A stretch of DNA of 64,000 nucleotides from Candidatus Magasanikiibacteriota bacterium (GCA_016193335.1 JACPSK010000001.1:519738-583737); one strand, 5' to 3'; shown: positions 13,451 to 52,831, numbered from the stretch's first letter. Numbers and translations are program-made. The notes: a model not told the origin generated them from the letters alone.

Positions 13451-15046
13451 ATGCGCATTGCGAAAATTTTTGATTCCAAAAAAAACCGGTGTCTGGCGGC
13501 GTTCTTTTTTATCATTCTCCCTTGGTATATCTTGCTCCTCGTGCGGCCCTTGGATTTATCAAATGATGACCTGGGCAGACACTTAAAAAATGGAGAATTC
13601 ATATTACAGGCCGTCAGTTCCTTAGAATCTATACCAGAGATATTCAGCACAAATTTTTATTCTTACACCTTTCCCGATTTCCCTTTCGTCAATCACCATT
13701 GGGGAAGTGGAGTGCTCTTTTACAGTCTCTGGTCTACGCTAGGCCCTCTCGGATTCCAAGCATTCATGTATGGTACCGCTATCTCGACCCTTTTTATTTT
13801 TTTTGTCTTAGCGTACAAAAAATCAAATCTTCTTATCGCCTCTTCAGTTACTTTTTTCCTCGTTCCTCTCGTGGCAGAACGCCGTGAGCTAAGGCCAGAG
13901 CTGTTCAGTTATCTTTTTCTGGGGTTGTTTCTACTTATTCTTTTCAGGTATAGAGATAATCCTCAGTATGGAAAACTACCCTATCTATTGCCCTTTATAT
14001 TTCTACTCTGGGTCAATATTCACATATTCTTTATATTCGGACTTTTTGTGCTGGGCCTTTTCTTTGTCGACGCGCTTGTTGCTCGGCCGAGGCAAACGGC
14101 ATATACCAAAAAATTGGGAACAGCGGTCTTACTCTGTCTTATCGCGGGGCTCATCACTCCGACCGGCGTGAAAACACTACTATACCCCTTCGCTATTTTT
14201 CAAAACTTTGGAATACAAGTGCAAGAGACTCTTTCTCTAAGCCAGGCAACAACAAATGATTTGCACCCCACCAAGGCAATAAGCCTAAAAATAAGTCTTG
14301 CATTTGGAGTGCTTGTCTTTTTATATTTAATAATCCACAAAGGTCGCAAAAACAATTTCCTAGTCACAAGCCTATGGGCTGTCTTTGGTTTTCTGGCCTG
14401 GAACATGATACGAAATATAAGTATGTACGCACTGGTCGCAATACCAACGCTGTCCATGGGTGTTTACGCGTTCGGTCTCAGATATTTTAAAAATAAATCT
14501 TTCGGCACTGGAGCCAAACTTGCCGTTTCAATATTAGTCATTTTGTCAACTTTACTGATTCACAAAGAACGCATCCCCGCGGCTTGGCAAGCCTGGGGAT
14601 ATGGTCTGGCGTCGAAATCTCAAGAAGCTGGAACGTTTTTAAGGCAAAATAATATACAAGGACCCTTATTTAATGATTTCAGCAGTGGAGGCTATGTCAT
14701 ATTCAATCTGTATCCTAATATCCGCCCCTTTGTGGACAATAGACCCGAAGCCTATCCTGCCGAGTTTTTTACCGACACTTATCTTCCTCTGCGTTCAGAT
14801 GAAGAAATCTGGGGAAAAACCCAAAAACAATATGGCTTCAATGTCTTACTTTTAGAATTTCCCAAAGATCCTGAACCGATCCTATTCTTGATACATCGAG
14901 TGAATGATCCTGATTGGGTTCCCGTATTTGTAAATAACTATCACGTCATCTTTGTAAGAAACAATGAACAAAACGCGGACATTATAAAACAATTTGAAAT
15001 CTCGAAAGATGCTTTTCGTCTCGAGAAGACTTCAAGCACTCTCTAG
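13451..15046 (+). CDS. Polytopic membrane protein, probable GT-C-fold glycosyltransferase (PMT/ArnT/YfhO-like)
   Basis: 531 aa with >=10 TM helices and a large C-terminal soluble domain. It sits adjacent and convergent to a DPM1-like GT2, the usual pairing for lipid-linked sugar transfer. Confidence 0.5.
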   Translation: MRIAKIFDSKKNRCLAAFFFIILPWYILLLVRPLDLSNDDLGRHLKNGEFILQAVSSLESIPEIFSTNFYSYTFPDFPFVNHHWGSGVLFYSLWSTLGPLGFQAFMYGTAISTLFIFFVLAYKKSNLLIASSVTFFLVPLVAERRELRPELFSYLFLGLFLLILFRYRDNPQYGKLPYLLPFIFLLWVNIHIFFIFGLFVLGLFFVDALVARPRQTAYTKKLGTAVLLCLIAGLITPTGVKTLLYPFAIFQNFGIQVQETLSLSQATTNDLHPTKAISLKISLAFGVLVFLYLIIHKGRKNNFLVTSLWAVFGFLAWNMIRNISMYALVAIPTLSMGVYAFGLRYFKNKSFGTGAKLAVSILVILSTLLIHKERIPAAWQAWGYGLASKSQEAGTFLRQNNIQGPLFNDFSSGGYVIFNLYPNIRPFVDNRPEAYPAEFFTDTYLPLRSDEEIWGKTQKQYGFNVLLLEFPKDPEPILFLIHRVNDPDWVPVFVNNYHVIFVRNNEQNADIIKQFEISKDAFRLEKTSSTL

Positions 15047-15054
15047 CCTCTAAC

Positions 15055-15170
15055 ATACAACCACCCCTTACATCCCCTCCTTGAAAAGGAGGGGATCGCG
15101 GCTGCGAAGTCTCTTTCCTCTTGGGTTCCACCGACAAGGTCCCTGAGACCCCTTGAAAAAGGGCGTTGCG
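15055..15170. repeat. Copy R1 of the composite palindromic intergenic repeat family
   Basis: CCCCTTACATCCCCTCCTT-gaaa-AGGAGGGGATCGCGGCTGCGAAGTCTC. The same modules recur at five other loci in this window. Confidence 0.6.
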
Positions 15171-15176
15171 AAAATT

Positions 15177-15887
15177 TTACTTGCGTAATTTCCCAAACAG
15201 ATTGTATCTAAAAATACAGTACAAAGCTCTAAATCCGTCTTTTATGCCTATCTTTTTGCCCTCAGCGTAACTTCTTGGATTATAAGACACAGGAACTTCA
15301 ACAATGCGTATACCCGAGACGCGAGAAACGCGGGCCGTGAATTCAAGATCAAAACCAAAACGATTTTCTTTGAGAGAGATGGAATTCAAAACAGATTTTT
15401 TAAAAACCTTGTAACAAGTTTCCGCGTCGCTCAGCCTTTGACCGCTGAGTAGATTTGATAGAGTCGTAAATATTCTATTGGCTATATAATGAGTGGGGTA
15501 TCCTTTGCTTCTCTTCTTTGCCAAAAAACGGGATCCATACACTAGGTCCGCTTCTCCTTTCAGCAAAGGCTCAAGCAATATTTTGTAATCCGACGGCGAA
15601 TATTCAAGATCGGCATCCTGCACCAAAATAATATCTCCGCTTGCTTTTGCAAAGCCGCTATGAAGCGCGGCCCCCTTGCCCTGGTTCTCAGAATGACGAA
15701 TTATTTTGAGAAATGTATCGCGCGCAAGCTCCTGAACTCGAAAAAAACTTCTGTCTGTAGAAGCATCATCAACTATGATAATTTCTTTACTTAAACCGAG
15801 GATGTCTGCTTGGCTTGCCCGTTTTATAAGTTCGCTTATGGTGTCCTCTTCATTAAAAACGGGAATAATTATGGAAACAGAATTCAT
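15177..15887 (-). CDS. GT2-family glycosyltransferase, dolichol/polyprenol-phosphate sugar synthase (DPM1-like)
   Basis: SIIIPVFNEE, DDASTDRS, and the DxD region VQDADLEYSP. The likely start is MNSVSIIIP; the ORF track extends to 15956. Confidence 0.8.
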   Translation of the reverse strand: MNSVSIIIPVFNEEDTISELIKRASQADILGLSKEIIIVDDASTDRSFFRVQELARDTFLKIIRHSENQGKGAALHSGFAKASGDIILVQDADLEYSPSDYKILLEPLLKGEADLVYGSRFLAKKRSKGYPTHYIANRIFTTLSNLLSGQRLSDAETCYKVFKKSVLNSISLKENRFGFDLEFTARVSRVSGIRIVEVPVSYNPRSYAEGKKIGIKDGFRALYCIFRYNLFGKLRK

Positions 15888-16014
15888 ACAAATAATGAAA
15901 ATCCGAGACCAAATCTCATTCTTCGCATTACTTCTGAGTAAGTCTAACATACGCAAGACCTTTTAACGAGGCACCGGGGGAATCCCTGGTTTCGTCCGTA
16001 CTGTCTCTTCTTCC

Positions 16015-16200
16015 ACTTCCGCCTTGCGGAGGAGGGAGACGCCGCAGCCGCGACCCCCTCCTTTCCGAAGGAGGGGGTTAGGGGGTGGTTATGAGACTGT
16101 TCGGATACGCTCCAGAACCCCCTCTTACATCTCCCCCTTAGTAAAGGGGGAGAGACACCAGTGGGGGGGTGTTTGTGAGAGAATAAGACACCAAGCTTGT
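16015..16200. repeat. Copy R2 of the composite palindromic repeat family (inverted orientation of the GCGGCTGCG module, plus GGGGTGGTTATGAGACTGTTCGGATAC module and TCTCCCCCTT-agtaa-AGGGGGAGA hairpin)
   Basis: Shares three sequence modules with R1, R3, R4 and R5. ORF 15944..16279(-) is a spurious translation of this repeat. Confidence 0.6.
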
Positions 16201-16541
16201 CTTCCAGGCTTATTTCATGATATATAAACAAGGTCCTTCTGCAAACCAAGGGAGACAGAAATGCTCGCGACTTTCGCACACTTCATCTATGATGAACGCC
16301 TCATCCCCTTCAACAGGCAAAACGCGGCCAACTACACGACCATTATGGGCGCCTGGCTGGCCAGAATTTCGTTTTACCTGTTTGGGATCATACTTGTCGC
16401 GTTCGCGATGCGCAGTGAATTGACGCCCTGGATGCTCGGCCTGCGTTACGCAGCCATAGGTTTTGGCATCTTGGCCGGAATCTGCGACGCTTTGGACGGC
16501 TTCATCGCCCGAAAGCTCGGCTGTGTGACCGAACTTGGCAG

Positions 16542-17694
16542 GATACCGTTACCTTTTGGGTGCGTGAAAAGTTGTTTTCTTTGCTAGACTATGCTAAGAA
16601 ATGAGTGTTTAACTAGTTAATTAGCCTACTGTGGTAAAAAAAACACAATCCATCCTGTCAGAAATGTGGGAGCAGGGAAACCAACAAACGAGGAAGCCGA
16701 CGTGAATTAAAAAGATATTGTTGCAAGAGCTGTCGAGGCTCTTTTTCAGTTGATCATGGCAGGAAGAAACCGGTGTTGTGGATTCCCCACATCGATGGTA
16801 TTTCCTTTCGCAAGCTCGGCGATGCACAAGGATTGTCCGGCAAACAGGCATATGTGCGCGTGTTTGATGAACTGAAGACCTTGCCGGAGAATCTGGAAAT
16901 CACCCGACAGTATGGTGCATACACGTCGGGTATTTTAATTATGGATGGAAAATATATTAAAGTCCGCGGATACAAACACAAGATTCCGTTCATCTATGCC
17001 ATTGACTACGAAACGCATGACATCTTGTTTGGGATACTGTCCCATGCTGAAGATGAAAAAACATTTCTTGCATTTTTTCACACACTCAAAACATTGAATT
17101 ATCCACTTCAAGCCGTCGTGGCCGACGACCGAACGTCGCTCCCCTTAGCCTTAAAACAGGTGTACCCGGGTATTCGGGTACAGCTTTGTCTTAACCATTA
17201 TCTGGAGAATATCCGACAACAACTCCACATTCGTACCGATGGAACCCATCGTCATTTTTTTAACGCGCTCAAGAAGCATGTATTTGACCATTACGAAAAT
17301 GACGAACAACTTACGACAGCCCTCCGCCAGGTGTGGACCAACCGATGTGAACAGGTGCCACTCCGCCAAACGATCCTTCTCCAGATTCACCAACGGAGAA
17401 CAGAATTATTTGCATACCACACCATAGTGAACTGTCCGAACAACACCAATCTGATTGAACTGTTTAATTCCCACTTTAATGCTCGACTGAAATCACTGAA
17501 AGGTTTCAAAACCAAAGCCCATGCCATGCTGTGGCTGAATGGCCTCATCATCCGCCGGCGGACAAAACCATTCACTGACTGCGGATCGAAGTTCAAACAT
17601 CTGAACGGCAAATGCTCCCTTGAGATGAGTATCAAAAAACAGGCCGAGTGGCCTGAAATATATGGGGTAAAAGCACCCAAAAGGTAACGGTAAC
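16542..17694 (+). mobile_element. Complete ~1153-bp insertion sequence with ~21-bp terminal inverted repeats and a 9-bp target-site duplication
   Basis: Left end GATACCGTTACCTTTTGGGTGC. The reverse complement of the right end is GTTACCGTTACCTTTTGGGTGC. Direct repeat ACTTGGCAG at 16533-16541 and again at 17695-17703. The element carries a single transposase gene. Confidence 0.75.
16638..17687 (+). CDS. DDE transposase with N-terminal Zn-ribbon (IS1595/IS256/IS1-type; family unresolved)
   Basis: In-frame N-terminal CQKCGS-x17-CCKSCRGSFS zinc ribbon. DDE-type core motifs MDGKYIKVRG, VVADDRTSLPLALKQVYPGIRVQLCLNHYLENI and NLIELFNSHFNARLKSLKGF. No in-frame ATG before 16770; the first GTG/TTG is at 16770/16773. 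Confidence 0.6.
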   Translation, partial: KKHNPSCQKCGSRETNKRGSRRELKRYCCKSCRGSFSVDHGRKKPVLWIPHIDGISFRKLGDAQGLSGKQAYVRVFDELKTLPENLEITRQYGAYTSGILIMDGKYIKVRGYKHKIPFIYAIDYETHDILFGILSHAEDEKTFLAFFHTLKTLNYPLQAVVADDRTSLPLALKQVYPGIRVQLCLNHYLENIRQQLHIRTDGTHRHFFNALKKHVFDHYENDEQLTTALRQVWTNRCEQVPLRQTILLQIHQRRTELFAYHTIVNCPNNTNLIELFNSHFNARLKSLKGFKTKAHAMLWLNGLIIRRRTKPFTDCGSKFKHLNGKCSLEMSIKKQAEWPEIYGVKAPKR

Positions 17695-18349
17695 ACTTGG
17701 CAGCATACTCGATCCGCATCATGACAAAACCCAGTACCTGGCAAAAACCGGCTGCCTGATCGCGGATGCCGCCATCGCGGTGGCTGTATTGGGCAGCTAT
17801 TGGTACCTGGTGGGGGCCGTCATCTTGAAATACGCGGTAAATGAGCGCGATGAGACCGTTATGTTTCACCGCCTCTGGGCCAAAAGCCTGGTCCCAAACG
17901 CGAACTTGGCCGCGGGGTCTTCGGGCAAGATCAGAACCGTGCTCTGCTTTGTGGGCATGCCACTCATGCACTTGTGCGTCCTCCCCTTCGATCTGCTCTC
18001 GGTGTATCTCGGGATCTCGTGTCTGCTCACAAGCATGACCCTCCTCTCACTGAGGATCTACGTGCGGAATTACCGCAATCTGATCCTGAAAGAACGAGGA
18101 CAGCTGAATTGAAGAAGGAATTGGAAAACTCTCGCCTCGCTTGCTTTGCAATTTATCCAGACCGGAAAAATTCATGTAAAAACTTACATTAAAGTACGAT
18201 ACAAAATATCCCGGCCGGCCAGAAAATTAACATTTCCATTCATGAATGCAAAGCAGGAGATCTGGCGAGAGCAAAAAAATCCCGATATGCTCGGGATTTT
18301 TAATTTACAATTCTTGTTTAATTGGAGTTTGTATCAACCAAATCAAATG

Positions 18350-18994
18350 CTAAACAAATAACACATACAGCAAAGGAACCACAGTGATCCCGAGGAACAC
18401 ATACAAAGAAATCATTATAGTTTTTCTCAACCCATGCAAAAAATGTTCATAACTGTGCTTGTGGTGACGCATAAATAAATCTGTCATAAGCAAACAAAAG
18501 CCAACAAATACATACCACAAAATAAGTCGCGGCGGTTCGAAAGGCCACAATTCGTAGCCTCCATAAGACAAAAGAAACATAAGAGGAGCAGAAAGCATGG
18601 CGGCCCACAGTCCGCTCAAAACCATTTTCATCTTGTCCAGTTTGAGCCAAAATAACATAAGAAGGAAAACATTTATAATAATATGATACAGCCAAGCCAA
18701 GCCCAGAAGCTCCGAAGAGCCGCCCACAAGACTCAAATCTCCTGACAATACCTCTATGGCCAAAAAACTGGTGCCTATGTAAACCGTATAAAACAAAATC
18801 CAGGAAAAGAAAAAAGATGAAACATAGGGGGACCATGCTTTTGAAGGCAAAAACAAAGCCGTACCATATCCTATGGCTCCAAGCATACACATGCTTACAT
18901 GAGCATCAGTGGTAGCAACCAAGATGCCAAAAGCAAGCAGAGAGAGAAAAGCGCCCGCCGATTTTCGCGCCGCGTCTTTGAATGTAACTGGCAT
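18350..18994 (-). CDS. Hypothetical polytopic membrane protein
   Basis: 214 aa with ~6 TM helices. No recognisable motif. Confidence 0.45.
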   Translation of the reverse strand: MPVTFKDAARKSAGAFLSLLAFGILVATTDAHVSMCMLGAIGYGTALFLPSKAWSPYVSSFFFSWILFYTVYIGTSFLAIEVLSGDLSLVGGSSELLGLAWLYHIIINVFLLMLFWLKLDKMKMVLSGLWAAMLSAPLMFLLSYGGYELWPFEPPRLILWYVFVGFCLLMTDLFMRHHKHSYEHFLHGLRKTIMISLYVFLGITVVPLLYVLFV

Positions 18995-19265
18995 ATAGAA
19001 CCTTTGTTAAAGAGATAAATGTCTTTTTTCATTTTTTCTCAAAATCCAAAGGGAAAAATCTGCTTCAATTTCCCTTTCTTTCCAGCTTTTTCTTTTACTC
19101 TGCTATGTACGCGTTGGCTCCTTCCAAAGCGATCTCAACGCTCAATACTATTCACTAATATAAATGTATCCATGCTTAATCAAAAGTATAGCAGAAATAT
19201 CAAATCCATAAAAGAACAAACACTGGCTATGCGGCCATTTTTCTGTTAAAATTAGCATTCCTTCT

Positions 19266-20363
19266 ATGATCAAAAAAATACTCATCATCTCAGCCAAGGC
19301 CGGAGCAGGACATATCCGAGCGGCAGAGGCTCTCACAAAAACCGCGCTACTCCAATTCCCGGAATTGGAAGTTAAACATATTGAGTTTACTGACTTTATA
19401 CCCTCAGTTTTAAAAACAGTCTTTTTTGATTCTTACGGCCCTTTGGTGTGCAAAGCTCCTATAATCTGGGATTTTTTATTCAAAAAAACAAACACAGAGC
19501 TTGGCAGTGCAACAATTCTGAAATTAATCTCATTCTTACAAAAAACAAGGGGCAGTTCTTTCGTAAAAGCAGTTCTTGATTTTAATCCTGATCTTATCCT
19601 TCACACCCATTTTGTAAGCCCATACATAAGCTCAGAGTCCAAACAACTCGCTCACATACCAAACGCGATTGTGATAACAGACTATGGCGTTCATAAACTC
19701 TGGGTCGGCTTGCCTCAGGCAGACTACTTTATGCCTCACCAAGATATGATAAGAGAACTGAATCTGCAAAGAATTCCCCTATCACGCATCCATGTCACCG
19801 GCATGTCCATAGATCCGGTATTTTATAAACATAAAGAATCCGGACAACTCAAACAAAAATATGGCTTTGAACTTGGGAAACCCTTAATTCTCGTACTAGC
19901 CGGCGGACAGGGTTTAAGCGACACGACAAAGCCAGTCAAAGCCATAAGCTCTATCCAAACGCCCTTTACTTTGGTCGCCATAGCCGGCAAAAACAAAACA
20001 TTGGAAAAAAAACTTAAAAATCTAAAACTCCCAAAACAAATCAATTACAGAACCACGGGATGGACAGACACAATAGACGAATATATCCGTATGGCAGACT
20101 GCGTGGTCGGTAAACCCGGAGGCATGACCACGAGCGAATGCATGGCTCTTGGCAAGCCGATTATTGCCATTAATGCTGTCCCCGGCCAGGAAGAATTAAA
20201 TGCAGACTTCATAATAAAACACAGACTCGGACTGATCGCTAAAAGTATGTCAGAACTTCCCGGCTTGGTGCTTGATGTCATACAAAAAAAACAGGCTTTT
20301 AAACCTATTTGTTACCCTCGTAGCGCCGAGGAAATTTTGAAAATTTGTGTTTCTAAAATGTAA
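19266..20363 (+). CDS. GT28-family glycosyltransferase, monoglycosyldiacylglycerol (MGDG) synthase / MurG-like
   Basis: N-terminal GAGH phosphate-binding motif (SAKAGAGHIRAAEAL) and the C-terminal GT28 nucleotide-sugar motif (VVGKPGGMTTSECMALGKPII). Confidence 0.7.
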   Translation: MIKKILIISAKAGAGHIRAAEALTKTALLQFPELEVKHIEFTDFIPSVLKTVFFDSYGPLVCKAPIIWDFLFKKTNTELGSATILKLISFLQKTRGSSFVKAVLDFNPDLILHTHFVSPYISSESKQLAHIPNAIVITDYGVHKLWVGLPQADYFMPHQDMIRELNLQRIPLSRIHVTGMSIDPVFYKHKESGQLKQKYGFELGKPLILVLAGGQGLSDTTKPVKAISSIQTPFTLVAIAGKNKTLEKKLKNLKLPKQINYRTTGWTDTIDEYIRMADCVVGKPGGMTTSECMALGKPIIAINAVPGQEELNADFIIKHRLGLIAKSMSELPGLVLDVIQKKQAFKPICYPRSAEEILKICVSKM

Positions 20364-20394
20364 GAGATGGAGACAGGGCACGAAAAATTTATAA

Positions 20395-20600
20395 GCACCC
20401 CTTACATCCCCTCCTTGAAAAGGAGGGGAGAATGACAGCGGAGTCTCTCCCCCTTTACTAAAAGGAGAACTCCCCGCACCGGTCTCTCCCCCTTTACTAA
20501 GGGGGAGATGTAAGAGGGGGTTTGGACATATCAGAGAATACAGTGCAAAGGGGTCTCCTCTCCTTGTGGAGGAGGAGATCTAAGGGGTGGCGCGTGAGGA
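20395..20600. repeat. Copy R3 of the composite palindromic repeat family
   Basis: CCCCTTACATCCCCTCCTT-gaaa-AGGAGGGG followed by two TCTCCCCCTTTACTAAGGGGGAGA hairpins and GATGTAAGAGGGGG. Confidence 0.6.
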
Positions 20601-20629
20601 AGGCGCTTGTAAAAGAAGTCGGGGGTAAT

Positions 20630-21205
20630 CTACTGATTATACAACTTAAACTGATCCGGAATGGCATCCCCTTCCAAAGGATCACCATAGCCTTTGAGCG
20701 GATCCTGCCCCTTGTAATACCCGGAATTAAGCACTCCCCATTGAAAATAAGATACGTCATCGTCCTCATTGGCAAATAAGACAAGATCCACTACAAAATA
20801 AGCAACGCTGTAAGACATAAGCATTACGGCCACTCCCAATACCCCATGGCTTATGATGCTGTTTGCTTTGTTTATTCTGTCTTCATTGCCCGCGGAGGTC
20901 ATATATAAATATCCTCCGTATACGGTGTAGATGATAAATAAAGTGCCAATAAAGGTTAAAAACATCTGCACTAAGCGGGCGGCAATAATAGGAGCAAGGC
21001 TTGGTTTTCCATATTGCGCCCCCTGTGTGCCGGCAAAGGCTCCTGTTTGTTTTCCTATTTCCTCTTGGAGAGGAGAAACAGCCGGCGGGTCTTCCGCGCC
21101 TGCAATGCCTGGAACAAAAAGTAGAGAATAGACAAAAAAACCCAGTATCGTAAGAATTAATTTATGTTTTAACGTTTGTGAAAAAACTTTTCGCATATTT
21201 ATCAT
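20630..21205 (-). CDS. TrbC/VirB2-like pilin paralog 1 (signal peptide, two TM helices, C-terminal extension)
   Basis: Core FIGTLFIIYTVYGGYLYMTSAGNEDRINKANSIISHGVLGVAVMLMSYSVAYFV matches the family consensus (TM1-YxGxxWMxxxG[NE]E[ED]-TM2). Confidence 0.6.
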   Translation of the reverse strand: MINMRKVFSQTLKHKLILTILGFFVYSLLFVPGIAGAEDPPAVSPLQEEIGKQTGAFAGTQGAQYGKPSLAPIIAARLVQMFLTFIGTLFIIYTVYGGYLYMTSAGNEDRINKANSIISHGVLGVAVMLMSYSVAYFVVDLVLFANEDDDVSYFQWGVLNSGYYKGQDPLKGYGDPLEGDAIPDQFKLYNQ

Positions 21206-21651
21206 TCTTGTTTCAAAGGCGCTTCAGTGGTATCTCCAAAGCCGGTCGCTTCTTTGACTTTTGAGGCCACAAGGTAAGCTATGCTATAAGCCGAAAGTAT
21301 AATGATAAGACCTATTACCGCGGCCTGTATGGTGCCGTAAGCTTTCTGAATTTTGTCTTCTTCTCCATGCGAAGTAACCAGGTTATAGCCGGCATTTACC
21401 ATTAAAACAATAAATATTATGCCATAGGCCTTTAGCATTACTTTTATTATATTTGCTATTACCACGCGCACATCCGGAGCTTCTTCATTTTGAGGTTTCA
21501 AACCGGCTTTCTCGGCTCCTGCGTTTAGCTGTTTGAGCGCCTGGCTCTTGAGTTCAGTCTCGGCGCTCGCGGTGCTGAATGGCGCGAAGTTTAAACCGAG
21601 CGCCATGATAACTACTGTGGTGAGGAAAAAAATATGTATTGATTTTTTCAT
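21202..21651 (-). CDS. TrbC/VirB2-like pilin paralog 2
   Basis: Signal peptide plus core VMLKAYGIIFIVLMVNAGYNLVTSHGEEDKIQKAYGTIQAAVIGLIIILSAYSIAYLV. Confidence 0.6.
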   Translation of the reverse strand: MKKSIHIFFLTTVVIMALGLNFAPFSTASAETELKSQALKQLNAGAEKAGLKPQNEEAPDVRVVIANIIKVMLKAYGIIFIVLMVNAGYNLVTSHGEEDKIQKAYGTIQAAVIGLIIILSAYSIAYLVASKVKEATGFGDTTEAPLKQE

Positions 21652-21702
21652 AAAAAAATACCCGGCCTTAACTTTATCGATTGGTTTTTCCTAATTTTGC
21701 TT

Positions 21703-22092
21703 TTAACCCCCGCTTGTCGCTCTTTCCAAAATGGCGTTTACCGCGAAATTTGAGAGCGTATACGCGCCCAAAGTCACGATAAGACCCATGATAGATCCTG
21801 TTATAATTTTTTTCGCTTTGTCTATTTGATCTTGTTCACCCCGAGCCGCCATCCACATATCTCCCGCATAAGCCAATAAAAACGTAAACATTATTCCCAC
21901 CAAAGAAAGAACGGCTTTTATCACTGTGCCCACCATTTCCGCAAAAGTGGTATCCGTGGTTTCTCCATAGCCTGCTTTCTTTCCGGCGTCTTTTACGATA
22001 TTGTTGCCAAGGTCTATGGCGGAAACCGAAGATACCAACACAGAAGACATTAAAAGAGGTGAAATAACGAGAAAAAATAAAATGCGTTTCAT
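21703..22092 (-). CDS. TrbC/VirB2-like pilin paralog 3
   Basis: Core LSLVGIMFTFLLAYAGDMWMAARGEQDQIDKAKKIITGSIMGLIVTLGAYTLSNF. Confidence 0.65.
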   Translation of the reverse strand: MKRILFFLVISPLLMSSVLVSSVSAIDLGNNIVKDAGKKAGYGETTDTTFAEMVGTVIKAVLSLVGIMFTFLLAYAGDMWMAARGEQDQIDKAKKIITGSIMGLIVTLGAYTLSNFAVNAILERATSGG

Positions 22093-22109
22093 ACGAAAAT
22101 AATTATTTT

Positions 22110-22490
22110 CTATCCTTGAAACTTACCGGTTACAAACACTGTTATCGCGTAAGCGGAAACCGTAATAAAAAGTCCGATTAATGAAGCTGTAATAATTTTC
22201 TGCGCTTTGCTTATTTGGTCTTCCTCGCCTCTTGCCGTCATCCATAGTATGCCGGCGTAGACCATAAGTATGAGAAAAATGAGTCCTACTAAACTCAGAA
22301 GGGCGTTTACTATAGTACCTACCACTATTCCCAGATTTTCTTCCTTTGTTCCTGCTTTGCCGGCCACCGTGTCCAAATTAGTTCCCGAAGCTCCGATTCC
22401 TATTTGGGCCGAGGCTGTTCCCGCTGACAGCAAGGCAAAGGCGGACATGACGAGCAGTAACATCGATAGAATGAATTTATTTTTTAGCAT
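22110..22490 (-). CDS. TrbC/VirB2-like pilin paralog 4
   Basis: Signal peptide plus core LSLVGLIFLILMVYAGILWMTARGEEDQISKAQKIITASLIGLFITVSAYAITVFV. Confidence 0.65.
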   Translation of the reverse strand: MLKNKFILSMLLLVMSAFALLSAGTASAQIGIGASGTNLDTVAGKAGTKEENLGIVVGTIVNALLSLVGLIFLILMVYAGILWMTARGEEDQISKAQKIITASLIGLFITVSAYAITVFVTGKFQG

Positions 22491-22584
22491 ATAGAGAAAA
22501 ATTCTTATGTTCTTTTTTCTTGGATTGGTTTTGTAGATTCATTAAATCCCTTCTTGCCTTTTCTTTTTCCTCTCAAAGGACATA

Positions 22585-22780
22585 CCCCCTATTCTCCACT
22601 CACAACCACCCCTTACACCCCCTCCTTAGTAAAGGAGGGGATCGCGGCTGCGGTGTCTCTCCCCCTTTACTAAGGGGGAGATGTAAGAGGGGGTTGTGGA
22701 ATGTATCCAAACAGTCTCATAACCACCCCTTACATCCCCTCCTTGGTAAAGGAGGGGATCGTGGATGCAATGTCCTTCTC
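22585..22780. repeat. Copy R4 of the composite palindromic repeat family (two tandem units, one carrying the inverted GGGGTGGTTATGAGACTG module)
   Basis: CCCCTTACACCCCCTCCTT-agtaa-AGGAGGGGATCGCGGCTGCGGTGTCTCTCCCCCTTTACTAAGGGGGAGATGTAAGAGGGGG...CAGTCTCATAACCACCCCTTACATCCCCTCCTTggtaaAGGAGGGGATCG. ORF 22520..23005(+) is a spurious translation. Confidence 0.6.
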
Positions 22781-22813
22781 CGAGATGAGAAGAAACGCCA
22801 TGAAGAGAAAACA

Positions 22814-23470
22814 CTACAAACTATCCCACTTTTCTTGACACTGTACACTGTTCAGCCCCTGGTAAAATTGCCAGCATCCGTCCGTTGGCCCCGGGCAAGC
22901 AAGTTCATCTCCATTGCCTTTCTTTTCTCCATGCAATTTACAATCTTCGAGCGTGGTTACGCGCCAGGCGATTTTGGAGGGAGACCATACGGAATAATCC
23001 CCTGAGCCTCCGGCGCTGTACCAGTCGAAACAACATCCGAGCGGCTGATCCCCGATTTGATCCGGCGTTAAAAAGGCCTTTCCTCCGCCCTCATTCGGGT
23101 TTCCTTGTATAACACGATTCGTTACAAAGCTTGTTACCGCATAAGCCGCCACCACTATTACCAGGCCTATGGTGGCGCGGATGATGGAATCTCTCGCGGT
23201 CTTTACGTTTTCTTCTTCTCCTCTTGCAGTCATCCAACGAATTCCGGCGTATACCATGATGATGAAAAAAATGATTCCCACCGCGATGGTCGCTGTTTTT
23301 ATGATATTACCCGTAACATTGGTTATTTGGCCTTCTGTGATGCCGGTTTTGCCAACTACGGTCGTAAGAGCGCCTTCAGCGTCTCCGATGGTTTTTTTGG
23401 CGTGGACTGAGTCTGAAACTTGCAACAAACAAAATGCCGAAAATAAAAGTACCCACAAAATTCTTATCAT
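22814..23470 (-). CDS. TrbC/VirB2-like pilin paralog 5 with Cys-rich C-terminal extension
   Basis: Core IAVGIIFFIIMVYAGIRWMTARGEEENVKTARDSIIRATIGLVIVVAAYAVTSFV, then a CCFDWY...CPGPTDGCWQF...CQEKWDSL tail. The likely start is MIRILWVLL. Confidence 0.65.
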   Translation of the reverse strand: MIRILWVLLFSAFCLLQVSDSVHAKKTIGDAEGALTTVVGKTGITEGQITNVTGNIIKTATIAVGIIFFIIMVYAGIRWMTARGEEENVKTARDSIIRATIGLVIVVAAYAVTSFVTNRVIQGNPNEGGGKAFLTPDQIGDQPLGCCFDWYSAGGSGDYSVWSPSKIAWRVTTLEDCKLHGEKKGNGDELACPGPTDGCWQFYQGLNSVQCQEKWDSL

Positions 23471-23474
23471 AAAA

Positions 23475-24347
23475 TCACTGCCAAAGACAAATATCTGCCT
23501 GTTGTTTGCATTCACTTTCAAGTTTTAAGTTAGGACATATTGATTTTGCTTCAACAGCTTTTTCTGAAACGCAATTCCCTCCGTCCCATTTGCAGTTCAA
23601 ATCTTTCACTTCCGCTGGCGCATATGGCAAAGATCCCATGTTATTGCAAGTTGGCTCGTCTTGTTTTGTAGCAGCTTTGTCTTCTTCTGTCATGTCCTTA
23701 GCAATATTTTTTTTCAATTCTTGCAAGAAATTATTACATACCCCATTTTCCTCGAAAAATGCTTTTGCCTTACAACTTCCACTCTGGCCTACACTTGCAT
23801 TACACTCAGACTCAGAAGCGAACGATACTGTACCGTTTGGACAACCGTCAGCACCGGGTTCTTTCTCTTTAACCTTAGAAAAGGTAATGCACTGTTCAGT
23901 TGCTTTATCAAAACAATAATCCGTATCTTTTGGCTTTCCACCTGACCCTGCTCCTCCCCCCCCTCCGGTATTTATCACCTGCCCGCCGCTCACGCTCTTG
24001 AGGACAAAATTGGTAATGGCGTAAGAAGCCAAGACAATAATGATGCCGATAACCGCGGCCACAATGGTATCCAAAGCCTTTTTGGCTTCTTCTTCTTTTC
24101 CTCGGGCTATCATCCAACGTATACCACCATAAATCATCAATCCAAAAAACAATACCGATATCATCGAGAGTCCGGTACCTACGATATTCCCGACAATGGT
24201 GGGCAAATCCGTGCCATATTGTTTGAGCCCGGCCGCTCCGGCCGTCTCTTCGAGTCCATATTGGCCGTACACCACCCCGGTGGAAAAAAATCCTGAAACC
24301 AAAACAACGCAGGCAGCGATACTTATGAGTAGAGTTTTTTGTTTCAT
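23475..24347 (-). CDS. TrbC/VirB2-like pilin paralog 6 with Gly-rich spacer and Cys-rich C-terminal domain
   Basis: Core LSMISVLFFGLMIYGGIRWMIARGKEEEAKKALDTIVAAVIGIIIVLASYAITNFV, then a GGGGGAGSGG spacer and >=12 Cys. The likely start is MKQKTLLIS. Confidence 0.65.
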   Translation of the reverse strand: MKQKTLLISIAACVVLVSGFFSTGVVYGQYGLEETAGAAGLKQYGTDLPTIVGNIVGTGLSMISVLFFGLMIYGGIRWMIARGKEEEAKKALDTIVAAVIGIIIVLASYAITNFVLKSVSGGQVINTGGGGGAGSGGKPKDTDYCFDKATEQCITFSKVKEKEPGADGCPNGTVSFASESECNASVGQSGSCKAKAFFEENGVCNNFLQELKKNIAKDMTEEDKAATKQDEPTCNNMGSLPYAPAEVKDLNCKWDGGNCVSEKAVEAKSICPNLKLESECKQQADICLWQ

Positions 24348-24454
24348 AGAAAAATGCGGAGAATTAGGAAACTTATGTGCGTCTTTTTTGAAAAAAGAGA
24401 AACGGACTATCTGTGGCAAAGATTTCTGGAGATAGTTTTATAGAGCATTCTCCG

Positions 24455-24700
24455 CGCCACCCCTTCACATCTTATCCTCCACAAGGAAGGGAGCACTGCA
24501 GCCGCGATCCCCTCCTTTTCAAGGAGGGGATGTAAGGGGTGGTTATGAGACTATTCGGACAAACTCCTCAACCCCCTCTTACATCTCCCCCTCTTACATC
24601 TCCCCCAAGGGGGAAAGACACCGCTATTATTCCTCCTCCTTGAATAAGGAGGGAATCATGAATGCGTTTGTCCCCTCCCGAAGAACGGGGTATTGGGGGT
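24455..24700. repeat. Copy R5 of the composite palindromic repeat family
   Basis: Contains CGCGATCCCCTCCTT-ttc-AAGGAGGGGATGTAAGGGGTGGTTATGAGACTATTCGGACA, TCTCCCCC repeats, and the related hairpin TTCCTCCTCCTTgaataAGGAGGGAAT. Confidence 0.6.
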
Positions 24701-24723
24701 AATAGTTACCCAAACTTATATAA

Positions 24724-25128
24724 TTAAGGAATTATCAGCACTTCCTGCGTAGTAGCCTCGTACAAATTCTTGAGGACAAAGGTACTTATCGCGTAAGCGC
24801 CCAAAATGATAATAAGGCCCGCGACCGAAGCAAACAAAATCTGCTGAGCTTTTTTTACATTATCTTCGTTTCCGCCCGCGGTCATCCATCTGAATCCCGC
24901 GTAAATGATAAGAACCGTGGCAAGTATGCCCAAAAGTCCCAAAGCCACGTTTATTATCCTTCCCGCCAATATGCGAGGATCTTCTTTCCCAAGTCCGGTA
25001 TATTCTCCGCAATCCAACCCGAGCGCGTCTTTTCCGCATTCATATTGGGCGGAAGCTTGGAGCGGAAGAACCCACACACTCACAAAAAAACTAACCGCGA
25101 AACTAAAGATAAGGGCAGATAATTTCAT
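24724..25128 (-). CDS. TrbC/VirB2-like pilin paralog 7 (short N-terminal Cys pair)
   Basis: Signal peptide, QYECGKDALGLDCGEY, then core LGLLGILATVLIIYAGFRWMTAGGNEDNVKKAQQILFASVAGLIIILGAYAISTFV. Confidence 0.65.
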   Translation of the reverse strand: MKLSALIFSFAVSFFVSVWVLPLQASAQYECGKDALGLDCGEYTGLGKEDPRILAGRIINVALGLLGILATVLIIYAGFRWMTAGGNEDNVKKAQQILFASVAGLIIILGAYAISTFVLKNLYEATTQEVLIIP

Positions 25129-25244
25129 ATTTTTATTTAATTAGCAACTAGCAACTCACAATCTGGTAATTTATTGTCAGTCGTCAATCGTTAATTGCGA
25201 AAAAGCACTCCGGGCAGAGTCTCCCCTGCCCGGTGCGCTTGTCA

Positions 25245-25775
25245 TTAGTCGATTTGTAACTCTGTGGGAATACCGGTGTTCGTGCCGGTTGTGGCAGACG
25301 CCAATTTGTTTAATACAAACAAAGCGATCGCCCAAGCCGACAAAATAATCGCCAAGCCGATAATTCCTGAGAAAATGAGCTTGCGAGCCTCAGCTACTTT
25401 GTCTTCATTGCCGCCTGCGGTCATCCATTTGAATCCGCCCACCAAGATGATAACTACAGCCACAATGCCGAGAAGACTCAAGGCTACGTTTATCAGTTTG
25501 GCTATGGTTGTGCGCAAATCTTGATTGCCCAAAGTGGTTTTCAGTTCGGTGTTCACTTTGCCGAGTCCGTATATGTCCGATCCTGTCGGAGCCGCGGCGC
25601 ATTTGCCTGTGGAAGCGCAAACAAGACCTGTTTTACAATCTGATGTCGCTGTACAATTAGCGCCTATATCTCCAGTACCGGCGAAAGCGGCCGGAGCCAA
25701 CATCAAAGCGAAAAACGCGGTCGCGATAATGGCCAAAGCCAATCTGTATCGTTCCAATTTTGCTGCTAAATACAT
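25245..25775 (-). CDS. TrbC/VirB2-like pilin paralog 8 (N-terminal Cys-rich knot)
   Basis: ANCTATSDCKTGLVCASTGKCAAAP, then core LSLLGIVAVVIILVGGFKWMTAGGNEDKVAEARKLIFSGIIGLAIILSAWAIALFV. Confidence 0.65.
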   Translation of the reverse strand: MYLAAKLERYRLALAIIATAFFALMLAPAAFAGTGDIGANCTATSDCKTGLVCASTGKCAAAPTGSDIYGLGKVNTELKTTLGNQDLRTTIAKLINVALSLLGIVAVVIILVGGFKWMTAGGNEDKVAEARKLIFSGIIGLAIILSAWAIALFVLNKLASATTGTNTGIPTELQID

Positions 25776-25842
25776 GTTATCACCTCCCTTCGGATTAGTG
25801 TGTGTATTACTAATTCAAGGTTAGTAATCATAGTAATTTTGG

Positions 25843-26625: not shown

Positions 26626-26646
26626 AATCGGAAATTTCCTTCTTTC

Positions 26647-27429: not shown

Positions 27430-27443
27430 ATCAAATCTTGACC

Positions 27444-28868: not shown

Positions 28869-29008
28869 TGAAGATCATCCTCTTCCTCTTTCGGAAATAA
28901 TTGCATGAACAACGTGCCATTATTATAGCACTCAAAACGCTCCAAACCAAGATGCCCAATATTTCATTTATTTTTTGTTCCACAAAATGCCCAGAATGCC
29001 CGCCCTTT

Positions 29009-49992: not shown

Positions 49993-50003
49993 AAAAATTT
50001 TTG

Positions 50004-52076: not shown

Positions 52077-52682
52077 GTATCCGGATGACGGACAGGACTC
52101 GCCAACGAACGGGCTCCTGCGCGATGCTCGTCGCAGAACTTCAGAATGTAGGTGAAGCCCCAAAATGAAGAACGGCCCAGGAGAGTATCCTGAGTCGGCG
52201 AAGGGCGTCGGCCGAACTGGTCACGCGGGAACGTGACCGGCAAGGCCTTCCAACAAGTCGGAGCGCATGAAGGAACCATGCATACCAACCTGTCAGTTCT
52301 GCCTCCGCCCACGCGGAGATGCTTGGCTGTTATTCATTCTTCTTACACTACCTGGTACCTGTCTGCCTTGTCAAGGCATGGACAGAGCTTGCTGTGAGGG
52401 CTGAAGTATCGGCGGCATGCTACGTGAGAGCCGCGGGCAGTTCCTTAATCATGATTGTGTATCAATTTAAACATTAAAAAAAGATTAAATAAAGTTTAAT
52501 GTGGAACTTAATAAAATTTAATCTGGGCCAGTTAACAATTAACAAACACAATTAATATCACTGAAATATAAGGAAAAAAACTTAATGGGTGTTTTCATTT
52601 TATAGGGCAAACTATATTGGAATTATTCATAAAAGAACAAAATTGTGTATATTATTGTATACAATTTTATTTATAACGCGGC

Positions 52683-52831
52683 CATTTCCCCTTTACTAAA
52701 GGGGAAATGTAGAGAAGATGTCCTTGGGTTTTTCTCAATGGATTCGTAAGTACCCCCTACATCCCTTATACAAACGCCCCCTACTTCCCCTCCTTAGTAA
52801 AGGAGGGAATTCTGGCTGCGAGGTCTATTCC
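52683..52831. repeat. Copy R6 (diverged) of the composite palindromic repeat family
   Basis: TTTCCCCTTTACTAAAGGGGAAATGTAGAG...CCCTACTTCCCCTCCTTagtaaAGGAGGGAATTCTGGCTGCGAGGTCT. Confidence 0.5.

What the first reader, a model, noticed from the sequence alone, without database searches (positions are those of the whole stretch)
15055..24700. Dispersed family of composite palindromic (MITE/REP-like) intergenic repeats with SD-like hairpins
At least six loci carry the same sequence modules in either orientation: 15055-15170, 16015-16200, 20395-20600, 22585-22780, 24455-24700 and 52683-52831. The modules are (a) CCCCTTACATCCCCTCCTT-loop-AGGAGGGGAT, a stem that contains an AGGAGG Shine-Dalgarno-like core; (b) GATCGCGGCTGCG[AG][AT]GTCTC; (c) TCTCCCCCTTTACTAAGGGGGAGATGTAAGAGGGGG; and (d) GGGGTGGTTATGAGACTGTTCGGATAC. 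They sit only in intergenic gaps (convergent, divergent and co-directional) and generate spurious ORFs with HPL/GGD-rich translations. Three copies sit inside the pilin paralog array. They have no regular spacing and no unique spacers, so they are not CRISPR. They may be mobile miniature elements, transcript-end stabilisers, or recombination substrates driving pilin diversification.
Basis: seen in the sequence. Interest (0 to 1): 0.7.

Follow-up and report, generated by a model that had tools for sequence, protein, structure and literature searches.

The report
Triplex-type palindromic DNA repeats (BoxC-like)
The repeats are real, and each is a hairpin plus a third mirror-image G-rich segment, the same design as the little-understood "BoxC"/intrastrand-triplex repeats of E. 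coli, here found in a tiny-genome Candidate Phyla Radiation (CPR) bacterium and, in near-identical form, in many other phyla.

Summary
Six intergenic loci carry about 10 intact and 7 decayed copies of one repeat family; none is expected by chance.

Each unit has three blocks on one strand:
- a pyrimidine arm (Y);
- its purine complement (R);
- a third block (RH) that mirrors R, with G opposite G and A or T opposite A.

This is the class II purine-motif "intrastrand triplex motif" known from E. coli BoxC/PIT/TM_ECO (Holder 2015). As there, two unit types sit in inverted pairs. Here the pairs build a ~117-bp composite (a-b-c-d).

The same family occurs in at least seven phyla. R type predicts RH type across 64 instances (0/3000 permutations). 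The A/T ambiguity fits triplex rules, not a Watson-Crick outer stem.

In other organisms the pairs lie in-frame inside real genes (LepA, an acyl-CoA synthetase), and some LepA orthologues lack the insert. That suggests insertion or mobility.

I found no transposase, T-tract terminator, Rfam family, phage or plasmid link. The SD-like AGGAGG is a by-product of the purine arm.

Verdict: a new sequence family of a known but functionally unsolved kind. Triplex formation in vivo, the way the elements spread, and the copy number in the source genome remain untested.

The parts
15059..15095 (-). Unit type a, intact. On the - strand: TCCCCTCCTT-ttc-AAGGAGGGGA-tgta-AGGGGTGGTT (Y-loop-R-loop-RH), 10/10 pairs and 10/10 triads.
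   Evidence: Five Logan short-read contigs stop at 15083-15088, inside this hairpin.
15096..15170 (+). Linker b (CGCGGCTGCGAAGTCTCT, 15096-15113) followed by a decayed type c unit.
16031..16053 (-). Linker b in reverse orientation (GGTCGCGGCTGCGGCGTCTC).
16054..16090 (+). Unit type a', intact: CCCCCTCCTT-tccg-AAGGAGGGGG-tta-GGGGGTGGTT. Its loop 2 (TTA) is the same as in E. coli type A TM_ECO.
16091..16115 (+). Linker d (25 nt) between two units whose RH blocks face each other.
16116..16168 (-). Unit type c, intact on the - strand (16116-16153): TCTCCCCCTT-tact-AAGGGGGAGA-tgta-AGAGGGGGTT. The same hairpin has a second, weaker RH on the + strand (16130-16168, 1 mismatch).
   Evidence: Logan contig L001 starts at 16130.
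20393..20429 (-). Unit type a with 1 triad mismatch (RH AGGGGTGCTT).
   Evidence: Three Logan contigs end at 20425.
20430..20484 (+). Linker b variant plus a truncated duplicate of the start of type c (GTCTCTCCCCCTTTACTAA, repeated 39 nt downstream).
   Evidence: (family D15).
20485..20522 (+). Unit type c, intact, 10/10 triads.
20553..20590 (+). Decayed unit: TCTCCTCTCCTT-gtgg-AGGAGGAGA-tcta-AGGGGTGG.
   Evidence: (E=1.8e-4).
22604..22640 (-). Unit type a, 9 triads, perfect.
22641..22657 (+). Linker b between two units whose Y arms face each other.
22658..22695 (+). Unit type c, intact, 10/10 triads.
22696..22720 (-). Linker d in reverse orientation.
22721..22758 (-). Unit type a, intact. It starts the second, partial copy of the ~117-bp a-b-c-d composite (start-to-start spacing 117).
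   Evidence: (family D1).
22759..22800 (+). Linker b variant plus the decayed hairpin CTTCTC-cgagat-GAGAAG.
24456..24507 (+). Decayed unit (24456-24493) and linker b in reverse orientation (24494-24507).
24508..24544 (+). Unit type a, intact, 10/10 triads.
24545..24569 (+). Linker d (3 mismatches).
24570..24615 (-). Damaged type c unit. It has a 15-nt tandem duplication of CCCCCTCTTACATCT (24572-24601), and the hairpin loop is deleted. These look like slippage scars.
   Evidence: (family D12, spacing 15).
24628..24700 (-). Decayed type a unit (TCCCTCCTT-attc-AAGGAGGAGGAATA), a linker b variant and a decayed hairpin.
   Evidence: (family D8).
52681..52715 (+). Decayed hairpin (ATTTCCCCTTT-act-AAAGGGGAAAT) without a matching RH.
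52773..52828 (-). Decayed type a unit (52773-52809, 3 mismatches) plus a linker b variant, 26 nt from tRNA-Arg.

Best explanation
The loci are arrays of BoxC/PIT-like 'intrastrand triplex motif' repeats.

Anatomy. Each unit has three 9-10-nt blocks on one strand:
- a pyrimidine arm Y;
- a 3-6-nt loop;
- the all-purine complement R;
- a 3-6-nt loop (mostly TGTA);
- a third block RH that is the mirror image of R, with G opposite G and A or T opposite A.

Proposed structure. On single-stranded DNA, Y and R form a hairpin. RH can fold back antiparallel to R in the major groove, giving G*G.C, A*A.T and T*A.T triads. This is a class II purine-motif triplex.

Arrangement. Two unit types alternate in opposite orientation, joined by linkers b and d: type a (AAGGAGGGG) and type c (AAGGGGGAG). 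This gives a ~117-bp composite that is present whole, permuted, partly duplicated or decayed at the six loci.

Shown here:
- the three-block rule;
- strong enrichment over chance;
- R-RH covariation across phyla and within orthologous LepA inserts;
- DNA-level rather than protein-level conservation;
- strictly intergenic placement in this window.

Taken from the literature, for E. coli relatives only: a stable triplex of the single strand in vitro, polymerase stops, no promoter or terminator activity, and raised local genome variability.

Inferred for this window. The structure forms only transiently, when DNA is unwound during replication, repair or transcription. It impedes polymerases and promotes slippage, deletion and recombination between copies. 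The elements are non-autonomous, probably selfish DNA that spreads by a mechanism not yet known.
For: 1. Enrichment: 10 class II motifs, 8 with no mismatch, versus 0 in 40 dinucleotide shuffles.

2. Definition and properties of the class, including in vitro CD/NMR evidence for TM_ECO, come from PMC4666352.

3. Same pair architecture as E. coli: two different types, inverted, RH blocks facing, 16-27-nt linker there and 25 nt here.

4. Collection scans constrained only the hairpin and TACA, not the flanks. They returned 11 genome loci (several phyla by record title) and 46 metagenome loci. Among these:
- 64 of 128 flanks show at least 9/10 canonical triads;
- the R type predicts the RH type: AAGGAGGGG gives GGGG[T x17 / A x16]GG; AAGGGGGAGA gives AGAGGGGG; AAGGGGGAGG gives GGAGGGGG; AAGGGGGGG gives GGGGGGG;
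- label permutation reached the observed score 0/3000 times, both with and without the window's copies.

5. In 17 double-sided type-a units, 12 would have a T.T or A.A mismatch if head and tail paired by Watson-Crick. All 17 satisfy the triad rule. In the window's pairs, each RH fits its own R at 10/10, but fits its neighbour's RH complement at only 7-8 of 10 by my hand alignment of the sequences.

6. T in RH gives A on the C-rich strand. That is non-canonical for a pyrimidine-motif or RNA triplex, so the constraint points to the G-rich DNA strand.

7. Orthologous LepA inserts:
- In the first unit, R and RH are invariant across 7 filled orthologues, including all Gly third-codon positions.
- Loops vary, and the reading frame through Y differs between alleles.
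- The second unit shows three concerted R/RH states: GGGGAGGAG/GGGGTGGTT, GAGGAGGAG/GAGGTGGTT and GAGGGGGAA/GAGGGGGTA.

8. Slippage-type scars in the window: a 15-nt tandem duplication at 24572-24601, a partial duplication at 20443/20482, and a 117-bp tandem at 22583/22700.

9. Hairpins are far more stable than shuffled sequence (z -3.5 to -7.8).
Against: - I could obtain no structural data for these sequences.
- In E. coli, DMS footprinting did not detect the triplex in vivo, and duplex DNA showed no triplex signal.
- The triad rule is permissive for G-rich DNA: permuted labels still score about 7.1-7.2 of 10.
- Copies are related by descent or gene conversion, so the covariation counts are not independent events.
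- Watson-Crick folding predicts three-way junctions for the pairs, which compete with a triplex.
- The window's type a units have RH on one side only.
- The genome-wide copy number in the source genome is unknown. The assembly breaks could be explained by the window's own copies.
- Instability of the flanking genes was not demonstrated, because no close relatives were available.
Confidence: 0.7

Rival explanations
1. REP/REPIN-type elements mobilised in trans by a Y1 HUH transposase (RAYT or IS200/IS605-like). On this reading the hairpin is the binding site. The conserved flank (TTACAT plus C/G run) acts as the guide or cleavage sequence, read through DNA-DNA contacts on single-stranded DNA.
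For: - The layout is BIME-like: alternating orientations with specific linkers.
- A conserved sequence abuts the hairpin foot.
- Presence/absence polymorphism and in-frame insertions in other organisms imply some insertion mechanism.
- IS200/IS605 TnpA is known to use hairpins plus adjacent guide bases (my own knowledge, not tested here).
Against: - No Y1_Tnp or any intact transposase appears among the ORFs of the window that I scanned. The only hit is a truncated Mutator/IS256-type fragment.
- None appears among the most recurrent Pfam families of 148 ORFs next to such units on about 50 contigs.
- The co-varying flank is 9-10 nt long and mirrors the arm. A 4-nt guide would not need that.
- REP families are normally species-specific, whereas this one is near-identical across phyla.
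Confidence: 0.12
2. RNA-level elements: very stable hairpins in intergenic transcripts. They could protect 3' ends, separate transcription units in the pilin array, or sequester an AAGGAGG Shine-Dalgarno sequence.
For: - Strong hairpins.
- Placement after stop codons and between co-directional pilin genes.
- The AAGGAGG core is inside the stem.
- REP sequences are known to stabilise upstream mRNA (my own knowledge).
Against: - No T tract follows any unit, and none is called terminator-like.
- Units occur in both orientations at each locus and also in a divergent promoter region.
- There is no Rfam family at either threshold; only sub-threshold miRNA-like chance hits.
- PIT elements had no promoter or terminator activity in E. 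coli.
- A hairpin-only function does not explain the RH block or its A/T rule.
- In-frame copies inside genes cannot be terminators.
Confidence: 0.1
3. MITEs: deletion derivatives of an insertion sequence. The palindromic units would be terminal inverted repeats, moved by the parent transposase, for example the IS256/Mutator-type gene in the window.
For: - A transposase fragment lies 600 nt from locus 2.
- The composite is about 100-120 bp and palindromic.
- The copies are dispersed.
Against: - The transposase gene is truncated and is separated from the repeats by another gene fragment.
- There are no consistent element ends or target-site duplications at the six loci or at the LepA insertion.
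- The loci are permuted or partial arrays, not unit-length elements.
- There is no match in plasmids or viral contigs.
Confidence: 0.05
4. G-quadruplex or i-motif forming repeats. The G runs of R and RH (GG-A-GGGG...GGGG-T-GG) would fold into two-tetrad quadruplexes, and the C-rich strand into i-motifs.
For: Four to six GG tracts lie within about 25 nt on the G-rich strand (seen directly in the sequence).
Against: A quadruplex needs neither the adjacent complementary Y arm, nor mirror placement of the interruptions, nor the restriction of interruptions to A/T opposite A. All three are observed.
Confidence: 0.03

Closest known systems
BoxC / PIT elements / TM_ECO of E. coli and other Proteobacteria (Hoyne et al. 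2000; Holder et al. 2015, PMC4666352)
   Same: - Class II Y-loop-R-loop-RH design with stems of 9-10 nt.
- G/C-rich, and loops less conserved than stems.
- Always intergenic here, with no strand bias (5 + and 5 -).
- Two types occur in inverted pairs, with RH blocks facing across a linker of about 16-27 nt.
- Loop 2 is TTA in one unit.
- No link to phages or plasmids.
- Decayed and partly deleted copies occur at the loci.
   Different: - The sequence does not match the TM_ECO pattern CCCTCNCCC-N3-6-GGGNGAGGG-N3-GGGNGAGGG (0 hits).
- The arms are AAGGAGGGG or AAGGGGGAG and end in AA/TT.
- Loop 2 is mostly TGTA.
- The host is a Candidatus Magasanikbacteria (CPR) genome.
- Units build a ~117-bp a-b-c-d composite in tandem.
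- The same sequence family spans many phyla and, elsewhere, sits in-frame inside genes. That was not reported for TM_ECO.
REP / BIME / REPIN elements with RAYT transposases
   Same: - Short extragenic imperfect palindromes.
- Clustered in mosaics of alternating orientation with defined linkers.
- Many decayed copies.
- They break short-read assemblies.
   Different: - No RAYT was found in the window or near related copies.
- A 9-10-nt mirror-symmetric third block takes the place of a GTAG-type tetranucleotide.
- Distribution is cross-phylum rather than species-specific.
Rickettsia palindromic elements (RPEs)
   Same: In other organisms, pairs of these units are inserted in-frame into surface loops of conserved proteins (LepA, acyl-CoA synthetase, a helicase, secreted-protein domains). 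Some LepA orthologues lack the insert.
   Different: - In this window all copies are intergenic.
- The sequence is unrelated.
- RPEs are restricted to Rickettsia and are not described as triplex motifs.
H-DNA-forming mirror repeats
   Same: A homopurine/homopyrimidine mirror repeat (R-loop-RH) that can form reverse-Hoogsteen triads.
   Different: Here the complementary Y arm lies on the same strand. The triplex can therefore form from one single strand by a double fold-back, without supercoiling-driven strand opening.

Membership tests
Class II purine-motif intrastrand triplex motif (ITxF definition, Holder 2015) | Three consecutive blocks Y-R-RH on one strand, with stems of 6-15 nt, at most 1 mismatch, and loops of 1-6 nt. 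| tested here: met
   10 motifs with stems of 9-10, loops of 3-6 and 0-1 mismatch.
Class II purine-motif intrastrand triplex motif (ITxF definition, Holder 2015) | R is homopurine. RH lies antiparallel to R and gives only G*G.C, A*A.T or T*A.T triads. | tested here: met
   8 of 10 units are perfect. Cross-phylum R-RH covariation reached the observed score in 0/3000 permutations. Concerted changes occur in the LepA alleles.
Class II purine-motif intrastrand triplex motif (ITxF definition, Holder 2015) | More frequent than in scrambled sequence. | tested here: met
   10 observed versus 0 in 40 shuffles. With relaxed settings, 16 observed versus a mean of 0.05.
Class II purine-motif intrastrand triplex motif (ITxF definition, Holder 2015) | The single strand actually folds into a triple helix (CD, NMR, DMS protection). 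| not testable with these tools
   Shown only for TM_ECO oligonucleotides in the paper. ViennaRNA does not model triplexes.
BoxC / PIT / TM_ECO sequence family | Consensus 5'-CCCTCNCCC N3-6 GGGNGAGGG N3 GGGNGAGGG-3'. | tested here: not met
   0 matches in the window.
BoxC / PIT / TM_ECO sequence family | Intergenic, no strand bias, and inverted pairs that combine two different types. | tested here: met
   Type a pairs with type c at loci 2, 4 and 5.
REP/BIME with RAYT | A cognate Y1 (RAYT) transposase gene in the genome, typically flanked by REPs. | tested here: inconclusive
   None among the ORFs scanned in the 64-kb window. None among the most recurrent families of 148 neighbouring ORFs elsewhere. 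The rest of the 686,675-bp source contig could not be retrieved.
REP/BIME with RAYT | Extragenic imperfect palindromes of 20-40 bp, in mosaic clusters of alternating orientation. | tested here: met
MITE | Defined element ends with terminal inverted repeats, a target-site duplication, and a related autonomous IS. | tested here: not met
   The loci are permuted or partial arrays. No TSD was recognisable at the LepA filled versus empty site. The only transposase gene is a truncated Mutator-type fragment that is not adjacent to the repeats.
Intrinsic terminator | A GC-rich hairpin followed by a T tract. | tested here: not met
   None of the 16 terminator-like sites in 14800-25000 coincides with a unit.
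CRISPR array | Identical direct repeats at regular spacing, with unique spacers. | tested here: not met
   Both orientations occur, spacing is irregular, and linkers recur.
Any Rfam RNA family | A covariance-model match at the gathering score. | tested here: not met
   No hit at these loci at gathering threshold. At the E-value threshold there were only sub-threshold chance hits.
RPE-like in-frame palindromic insertions | Insertion in-frame within protein-coding genes. | tested here: not met
   Not in this window, where all copies are intergenic. It is met for the same unit family in loci L011, L052/L058, L026, L009, L017 and L048.

The most novel reading that the evidence does not exclude
These triplex-type units would be one pan-bacterial family of mobile, non-autonomous elements. 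Their three-block fold on single-stranded DNA would itself be the structure recognised or used for insertion. Pairs would insert into intergenic DNA and, in-frame, into loops of essential genes such as lepA. They would then be kept intact by DNA-level selection or gene conversion for long periods. If so, the 25-year-old BoxC/PIT puzzle would be a transposition problem with an undiscovered mechanism. In CPR genomes such elements might mark the boundaries of exchangeable gene blocks, such as the pilin and glycosyltransferase cassettes.
Probability: 0.2. Interest if true: 0.8.

Novelty: new member of a known kind. Interest (0 to 1): 0.5.

Why it matters
BoxC/PIT/intrastrand-triplex repeats have been known since the 1990s, yet neither their function nor their way of spreading is established.

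What this case adds:
- a second, sequence-distinct family;
- a host with a very small (CPR) genome, where junk DNA is scarce;
- the same design conserved across phyla;
- a clean comparative signal, with arm and third strand changing together and A or T allowed opposite A. This favours a purine-motif DNA triplex over a longer Watson-Crick stem or an RNA structure;
- filled and empty alleles of an essential gene (lepA) in related bacteria, which opens the mobility question to testing.

Practical consequences: the units break short-read assemblies and generate spurious ORFs, so recognising them improves annotation of CPR genomes.

Tried and rejected
- Protein search with a spurious-ORF translation of the repeats: no hits, so it gave no handle on other copies.
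- Viral contigs with the hairpin pattern: 0 hits. Plasmids with blastn: no match.
- Retrieving the source contig failed. Look-ups returned only Logan fragments of the window, or nothing. A genome-wide count was therefore impossible.
- GT2 homologue search for close relatives: the nearest is 56% identical, so orthologous-locus comparison of the window's own sites was not possible.
- attC (integron) reading: GTTAGGG in one unit resembles R', but it fails the GTTRRRY consensus, the other units have TGTAAGG, and there are no cassettes.
- Start-stop mini-ORF (AAGGAGGGG-ATG-TAA): present in the TGTA loops, but absent from the tail-side loops of related units. I treat it as coincidence.
- Longer Watson-Crick outer stem between head and tail: contradicted by 12 of 17 mismatched interruptions.
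- Pyrimidine-motif or RNA triplex on the C-rich strand: half of the type a copies would need non-canonical A*A.U triads.
- Survey for a recurrent neighbouring gene: 148 ORFs gave 185 Pfam families, with none in more than 3 members and no transposase among the recurrent ones.

Full report

Yes.

- The repeat finder recovers the family as direct and inverted repeats, for example 41 nt at 100% and 106 nt at 85%.
- A profile of nine units searched with nhmmer --max hits only these six loci.
- Linker module b occurs 3 times at up to 3 mismatches (0.01 expected). Module d occurs 3 times (0.00 expected).
- All copies lie between ORFs or next to tRNA-Arg, in convergent, divergent and co-directional gaps.
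- Three loci lie in or at the edge of an array of ten T4SS_pilin (PF18895) paralogues.
- The repeats generate spurious ORFs such as HNHPLHPLLSKGGDRGC.

**2. Context**

The window is from a CPR bacterium. The glycosyltransferase at 15177-15887 is 100% identical to a protein named 'MAG... [Candidatus Magasanikbacteria bacterium]', on a contig of 686,675 bp.

The gene content fits that origin: type IV pilus genes, SSB, ribosomal protein S6, PolA, and a pilin-like array.

I could not retrieve the rest of that contig.

Eight Logan short-read contigs from seven runs match the window at 100% identity. All of them stop inside repeat hairpins: at 15083-15088, and at 16130 or 20425. This shows the units are repeated. 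The window's own copies would be enough to explain these breaks.

**3. Anatomy**

Read on the G-rich strand, each intact unit is Y - loop - R - loop - RH.

- Type a: TCCCCTCCTT-ttc-AAGGAGGGGA-tgta-AGGGGTGGTT.
- Type c: TCTCCCCCTT-tact-AAGGGGGAGA-tgta-AGAGGGGGTT.

R is the Watson-Crick complement of Y. RH is the mirror image of R, with G opposite G and A or T opposite A.

This is the rule for an antiparallel purine-motif triple helix (G*G.C, A*A.T, T*A.T). The block order is 'class II' in the scheme of Holder et al. 2015.

A scan written to their criteria finds 10 such motifs, 8 of them perfect. Five are on each strand. Forty dinucleotide shuffles gave 0. About seven further copies are decayed.

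- Modules a and c are the two unit types.
- Module b is the linker between units whose Y arms face each other.
- Module d is the linker between units whose RH blocks face each other.

Together they form a ~117-bp a-b-c-d composite. It is present 1.6 times in tandem at 22583-22780 and in permuted or partial form elsewhere.

**4. What is known about this kind of repeat**

E. coli BoxC was rediscovered as PIT elements and later named TM_ECO. It has the same design. According to PMC4666352:

- The elements are always intergenic and show no strand bias.
- They occur as inverted pairs that always combine two types.
- The single strand forms a stable triplex in vitro (CD, NMR) and stops polymerases.
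- No triplex was detected in vivo by DMS footprinting.
- No promoter or terminator activity was found.
- TM loci are more variable between strains than control sites.

From their Table 1, paired TM_ECOs have RH blocks facing across 16-27 nt. The window's locus 2 has the same arrangement with a 25-nt linker.

The window's units do not match the TM_ECO consensus. This is therefore a different sequence family of the same kind.

**5. Is the third block under constraint, or am I over-reading G-rich DNA?**

I scanned the genome and metagenome collections with patterns that fixed only the hairpin and TACA, leaving both flanks free.

*Distribution.* The scans returned 11 genome loci and 46 metagenome loci. 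By record title, the genome loci come from Chlorobiota, Ignavibacteriota, Hymenobacter, a gammaproteobacterium, Binatia, Brocadiaceae and Neomarinimicrobiota, plus unclassified MAGs.

*Covariation.* Among 64 non-redundant instances, 64 of 128 flanks give at least 9/10 canonical triads. The R type predicts the RH type:

| R arm | RH block |
|---|---|
| AAGGAGGGG | GGGG[T x17 / A x16]GG |
| AAGGGGGAGA | AGAGGGGG |
| AAGGGGGAGG | GGAGGGGG |
| AAGGGGGGG | GGGGGGG |

Shuffling R labels never reached the observed score (0/3000), with or without the window's copies.

*Triplex versus a longer Watson-Crick stem.* Many environmental units carry an RH on both sides. In 17 such type-a units, 12 would have a T.T or A.A mismatch if head and tail formed a Watson-Crick outer stem. 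All 17 obey the triad rule.

*Which strand.* The A/T ambiguity is tolerated only by the purine motif on the G-rich DNA strand. On the C-rich strand, or in RNA, half the copies would need non-canonical triads.

*Caveats.* Copies share ancestry, so the counts are not independent. The rule is also permissive for G-rich sequence: permuted labels still score about 7.2 of 10.

**6. Evidence from orthologous inserts**

Unexpectedly, units of this family lie in-frame inside real genes in other organisms:

- an acyl-CoA synthetase with two pairs, which has about 19 extra residues relative to a solved homologue;
- LepA/EF4 of a Nomurabacteria-like CPR bacterium, with about 28 extra residues between MEY and YVLNLIDTPGH;
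- a UvrD/AddA-like helicase;
- a C-terminal region of secreted proteins, one of which carries a Por_Secre_tail domain, with the insert SPPYQGGDVRGGW.

LepA orthologues at about 80% identity fall into two groups. Some are 599-603 aa with an empty loop (MEYKFGNENYVLNL). Others are longer and carry this pair or an unrelated palindromic insert at the same loop.

DNA of seven filled orthologues (eight loci, two nearly identical) and one empty orthologue shows:

- In the first unit, R and RH are invariant, including all four-fold-degenerate Gly third positions.
- Loops vary, and the reading frame through Y differs between alleles. The conservation is therefore at the DNA level, not the protein level.
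- The second unit exists in three states in which R and RH change together: GGGGAGGAG/GGGGTGGTT, GAGGAGGAG/GAGGTGGTT and GAGGGGGAA/GAGGGGGTA.

Whether these states arose by in-situ compensation or by gene conversion from other copies, the three-block relation is maintained.

No target-site duplication could be recognised at this level of divergence.

**7. Rival explanations**

- **REP/RAYT.** The layout is BIME-like, and a single-stranded-DNA hairpin transposase could in principle read a flank. However, no Y1 transposase occurs among the ORFs of the window that I scanned, and none is among the most recurrent families of 148 neighbouring ORFs on about 50 other contigs. A 9-10-nt mirror block is also more than a guide sequence would need.
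- **MITE.** There are no defined ends, TSD or parent IS. The Mutator-type gene at 16773-17687 is a truncated fragment.
- **RNA element.** There are no T tracts and no Rfam family. Both orientations occur at each locus, and a hairpin-only role does not explain RH.
- **G-quadruplex or i-motif.** Neither explains the Y arm or the mirror rule.

Watson-Crick folding predicts stable hairpins and, for pairs, three-way junctions (z -3.5 to -7.8). These would compete with a triplex.

**8. Most likely mechanism**

*Shown:* three-block units, their enrichment, their covariation, and their intergenic placement in this window.

*From the literature on E. coli relatives:* triplex folding of the single strand, and polymerase stops.

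*Inferred for this window:*
- The structure folds transiently when the DNA is unwound.
- It obstructs replication or repair and promotes slippage and recombination between copies.

Scars consistent with this are present: a 15-nt tandem duplication with loop deletion at 24570-24615, a partial duplication at 20443/20482, and the 117-bp tandem.

The units also bound blocks that look unstable. One is a glycosyltransferase gene whose best homologues (at most 56% identical) include proteins of other phyla. Another holds a truncated CDP-alcohol phosphatidyltransferase next to the transposase fragment. Others are subsets of the pilin paralogues.

I could not show that the repeats drive pilin diversification. 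How the elements spread is unknown.

**9. Verdict**

It missed the defining third block.

The finding is a new sequence family of a known but unexplained class. It has a few new angles: a CPR host, cross-phylum identity, the composite a-b-c-d unit, and in-frame inserts elsewhere.

I rate interest as moderate (0.5).

Noticed in passing
L052/L058, L061-L063, L069-L072; proteins P0121-P0240: In LepA/EF4 of Nomurabacteria/Paceibacterota-like CPR bacteria, the loop between MQPVRMEY and Y[IV]LNLIDTPGH is an insertion hot spot. At least five unrelated insert families occur there, including an AT-rich one (RPQFPVSNFQFPINDSISSENSKLKIENS). Further inserts occur at other sites (PSTSSGQVG, PLRHSTSEAS, TPSLLPLAKGEVSKAEGV). 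Empty alleles exist at about 80% identity.
   Followed up: partly
L069, within the first ~130 nt of the lepA insert: A 20-nt palindrome (CAGGCCTGCCTGCGCAGGCA) is nested in loop 2 of the triplex-type unit. This separates R from RH.
   Followed up: no
window 16261-17687: A truncated CDP-alcohol phosphatidyltransferase (108 aa, profile positions 15-61 of 152) lies next to a truncated IS256/Mutator-type transposase (profile positions 161-362 of 379). This decayed block is bounded by repeat loci 2 and 3.
   Followed up: partly
window 45490-45951 (inside ORF 45347-48478, - strand): Three tandem copies of a 198-bp repeat (89% and 62% identity to the reference copy) lie inside a 1043-aa ORF with no Pfam match.
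   Followed up: no
window 50218-50352 (+): A SAM (S-box) riboswitch scores above the Rfam gathering threshold. It lies upstream of a short ORF region with no Pfam hit, and next to tRNA-Ala (50003-50077, - strand).
   Followed up: no
window 21202-30004 (- strand): Ten paralogues with the T4SS_pilin domain (126-331 aa) form one array. It is interrupted by a solute-binding protein gene (27444-28868). Their conserved C-terminal segments account for repeat families D4, D6, D9, D10 and D19.
   Followed up: partly
window 15177-15887 (- strand): The GT2 glycosyltransferase is flanked on both sides by repeat loci. Its best homologues are at most 56% identical and include proteins named as Electronema/Electrothrix and Aminicenantes as well as Magasanikbacteria. 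That suggests a horizontally exchanged cassette.
   Followed up: no
L026 3291-3325; L027 1781-1817; L041 1556-1598; L045 6692-6737; L049 3997-4090: Other sequence families of class II three-block motifs sit on the same contigs as the TACAT-loop family. Some are close to the E. coli TM_ECO consensus (for example TCCTCTCCC-cttgc-GGGAGAGGG-ttg-GGGTGAGGG). Several triplex-type families therefore coexist in one genome.
   Followed up: no
L009, L017 (two genes), L048: A perfect type a unit encoding SPPYQGGDVRGGW sits at the same position of a conserved C-terminal region (…NNYGFEIERR-insert-KIGFVxGxGTSN…). It occurs in several large secreted proteins from different contigs, one of which is labelled Ignavibacteriota. 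The L009 protein also has a Por_Secre_tail domain.
   Followed up: partly
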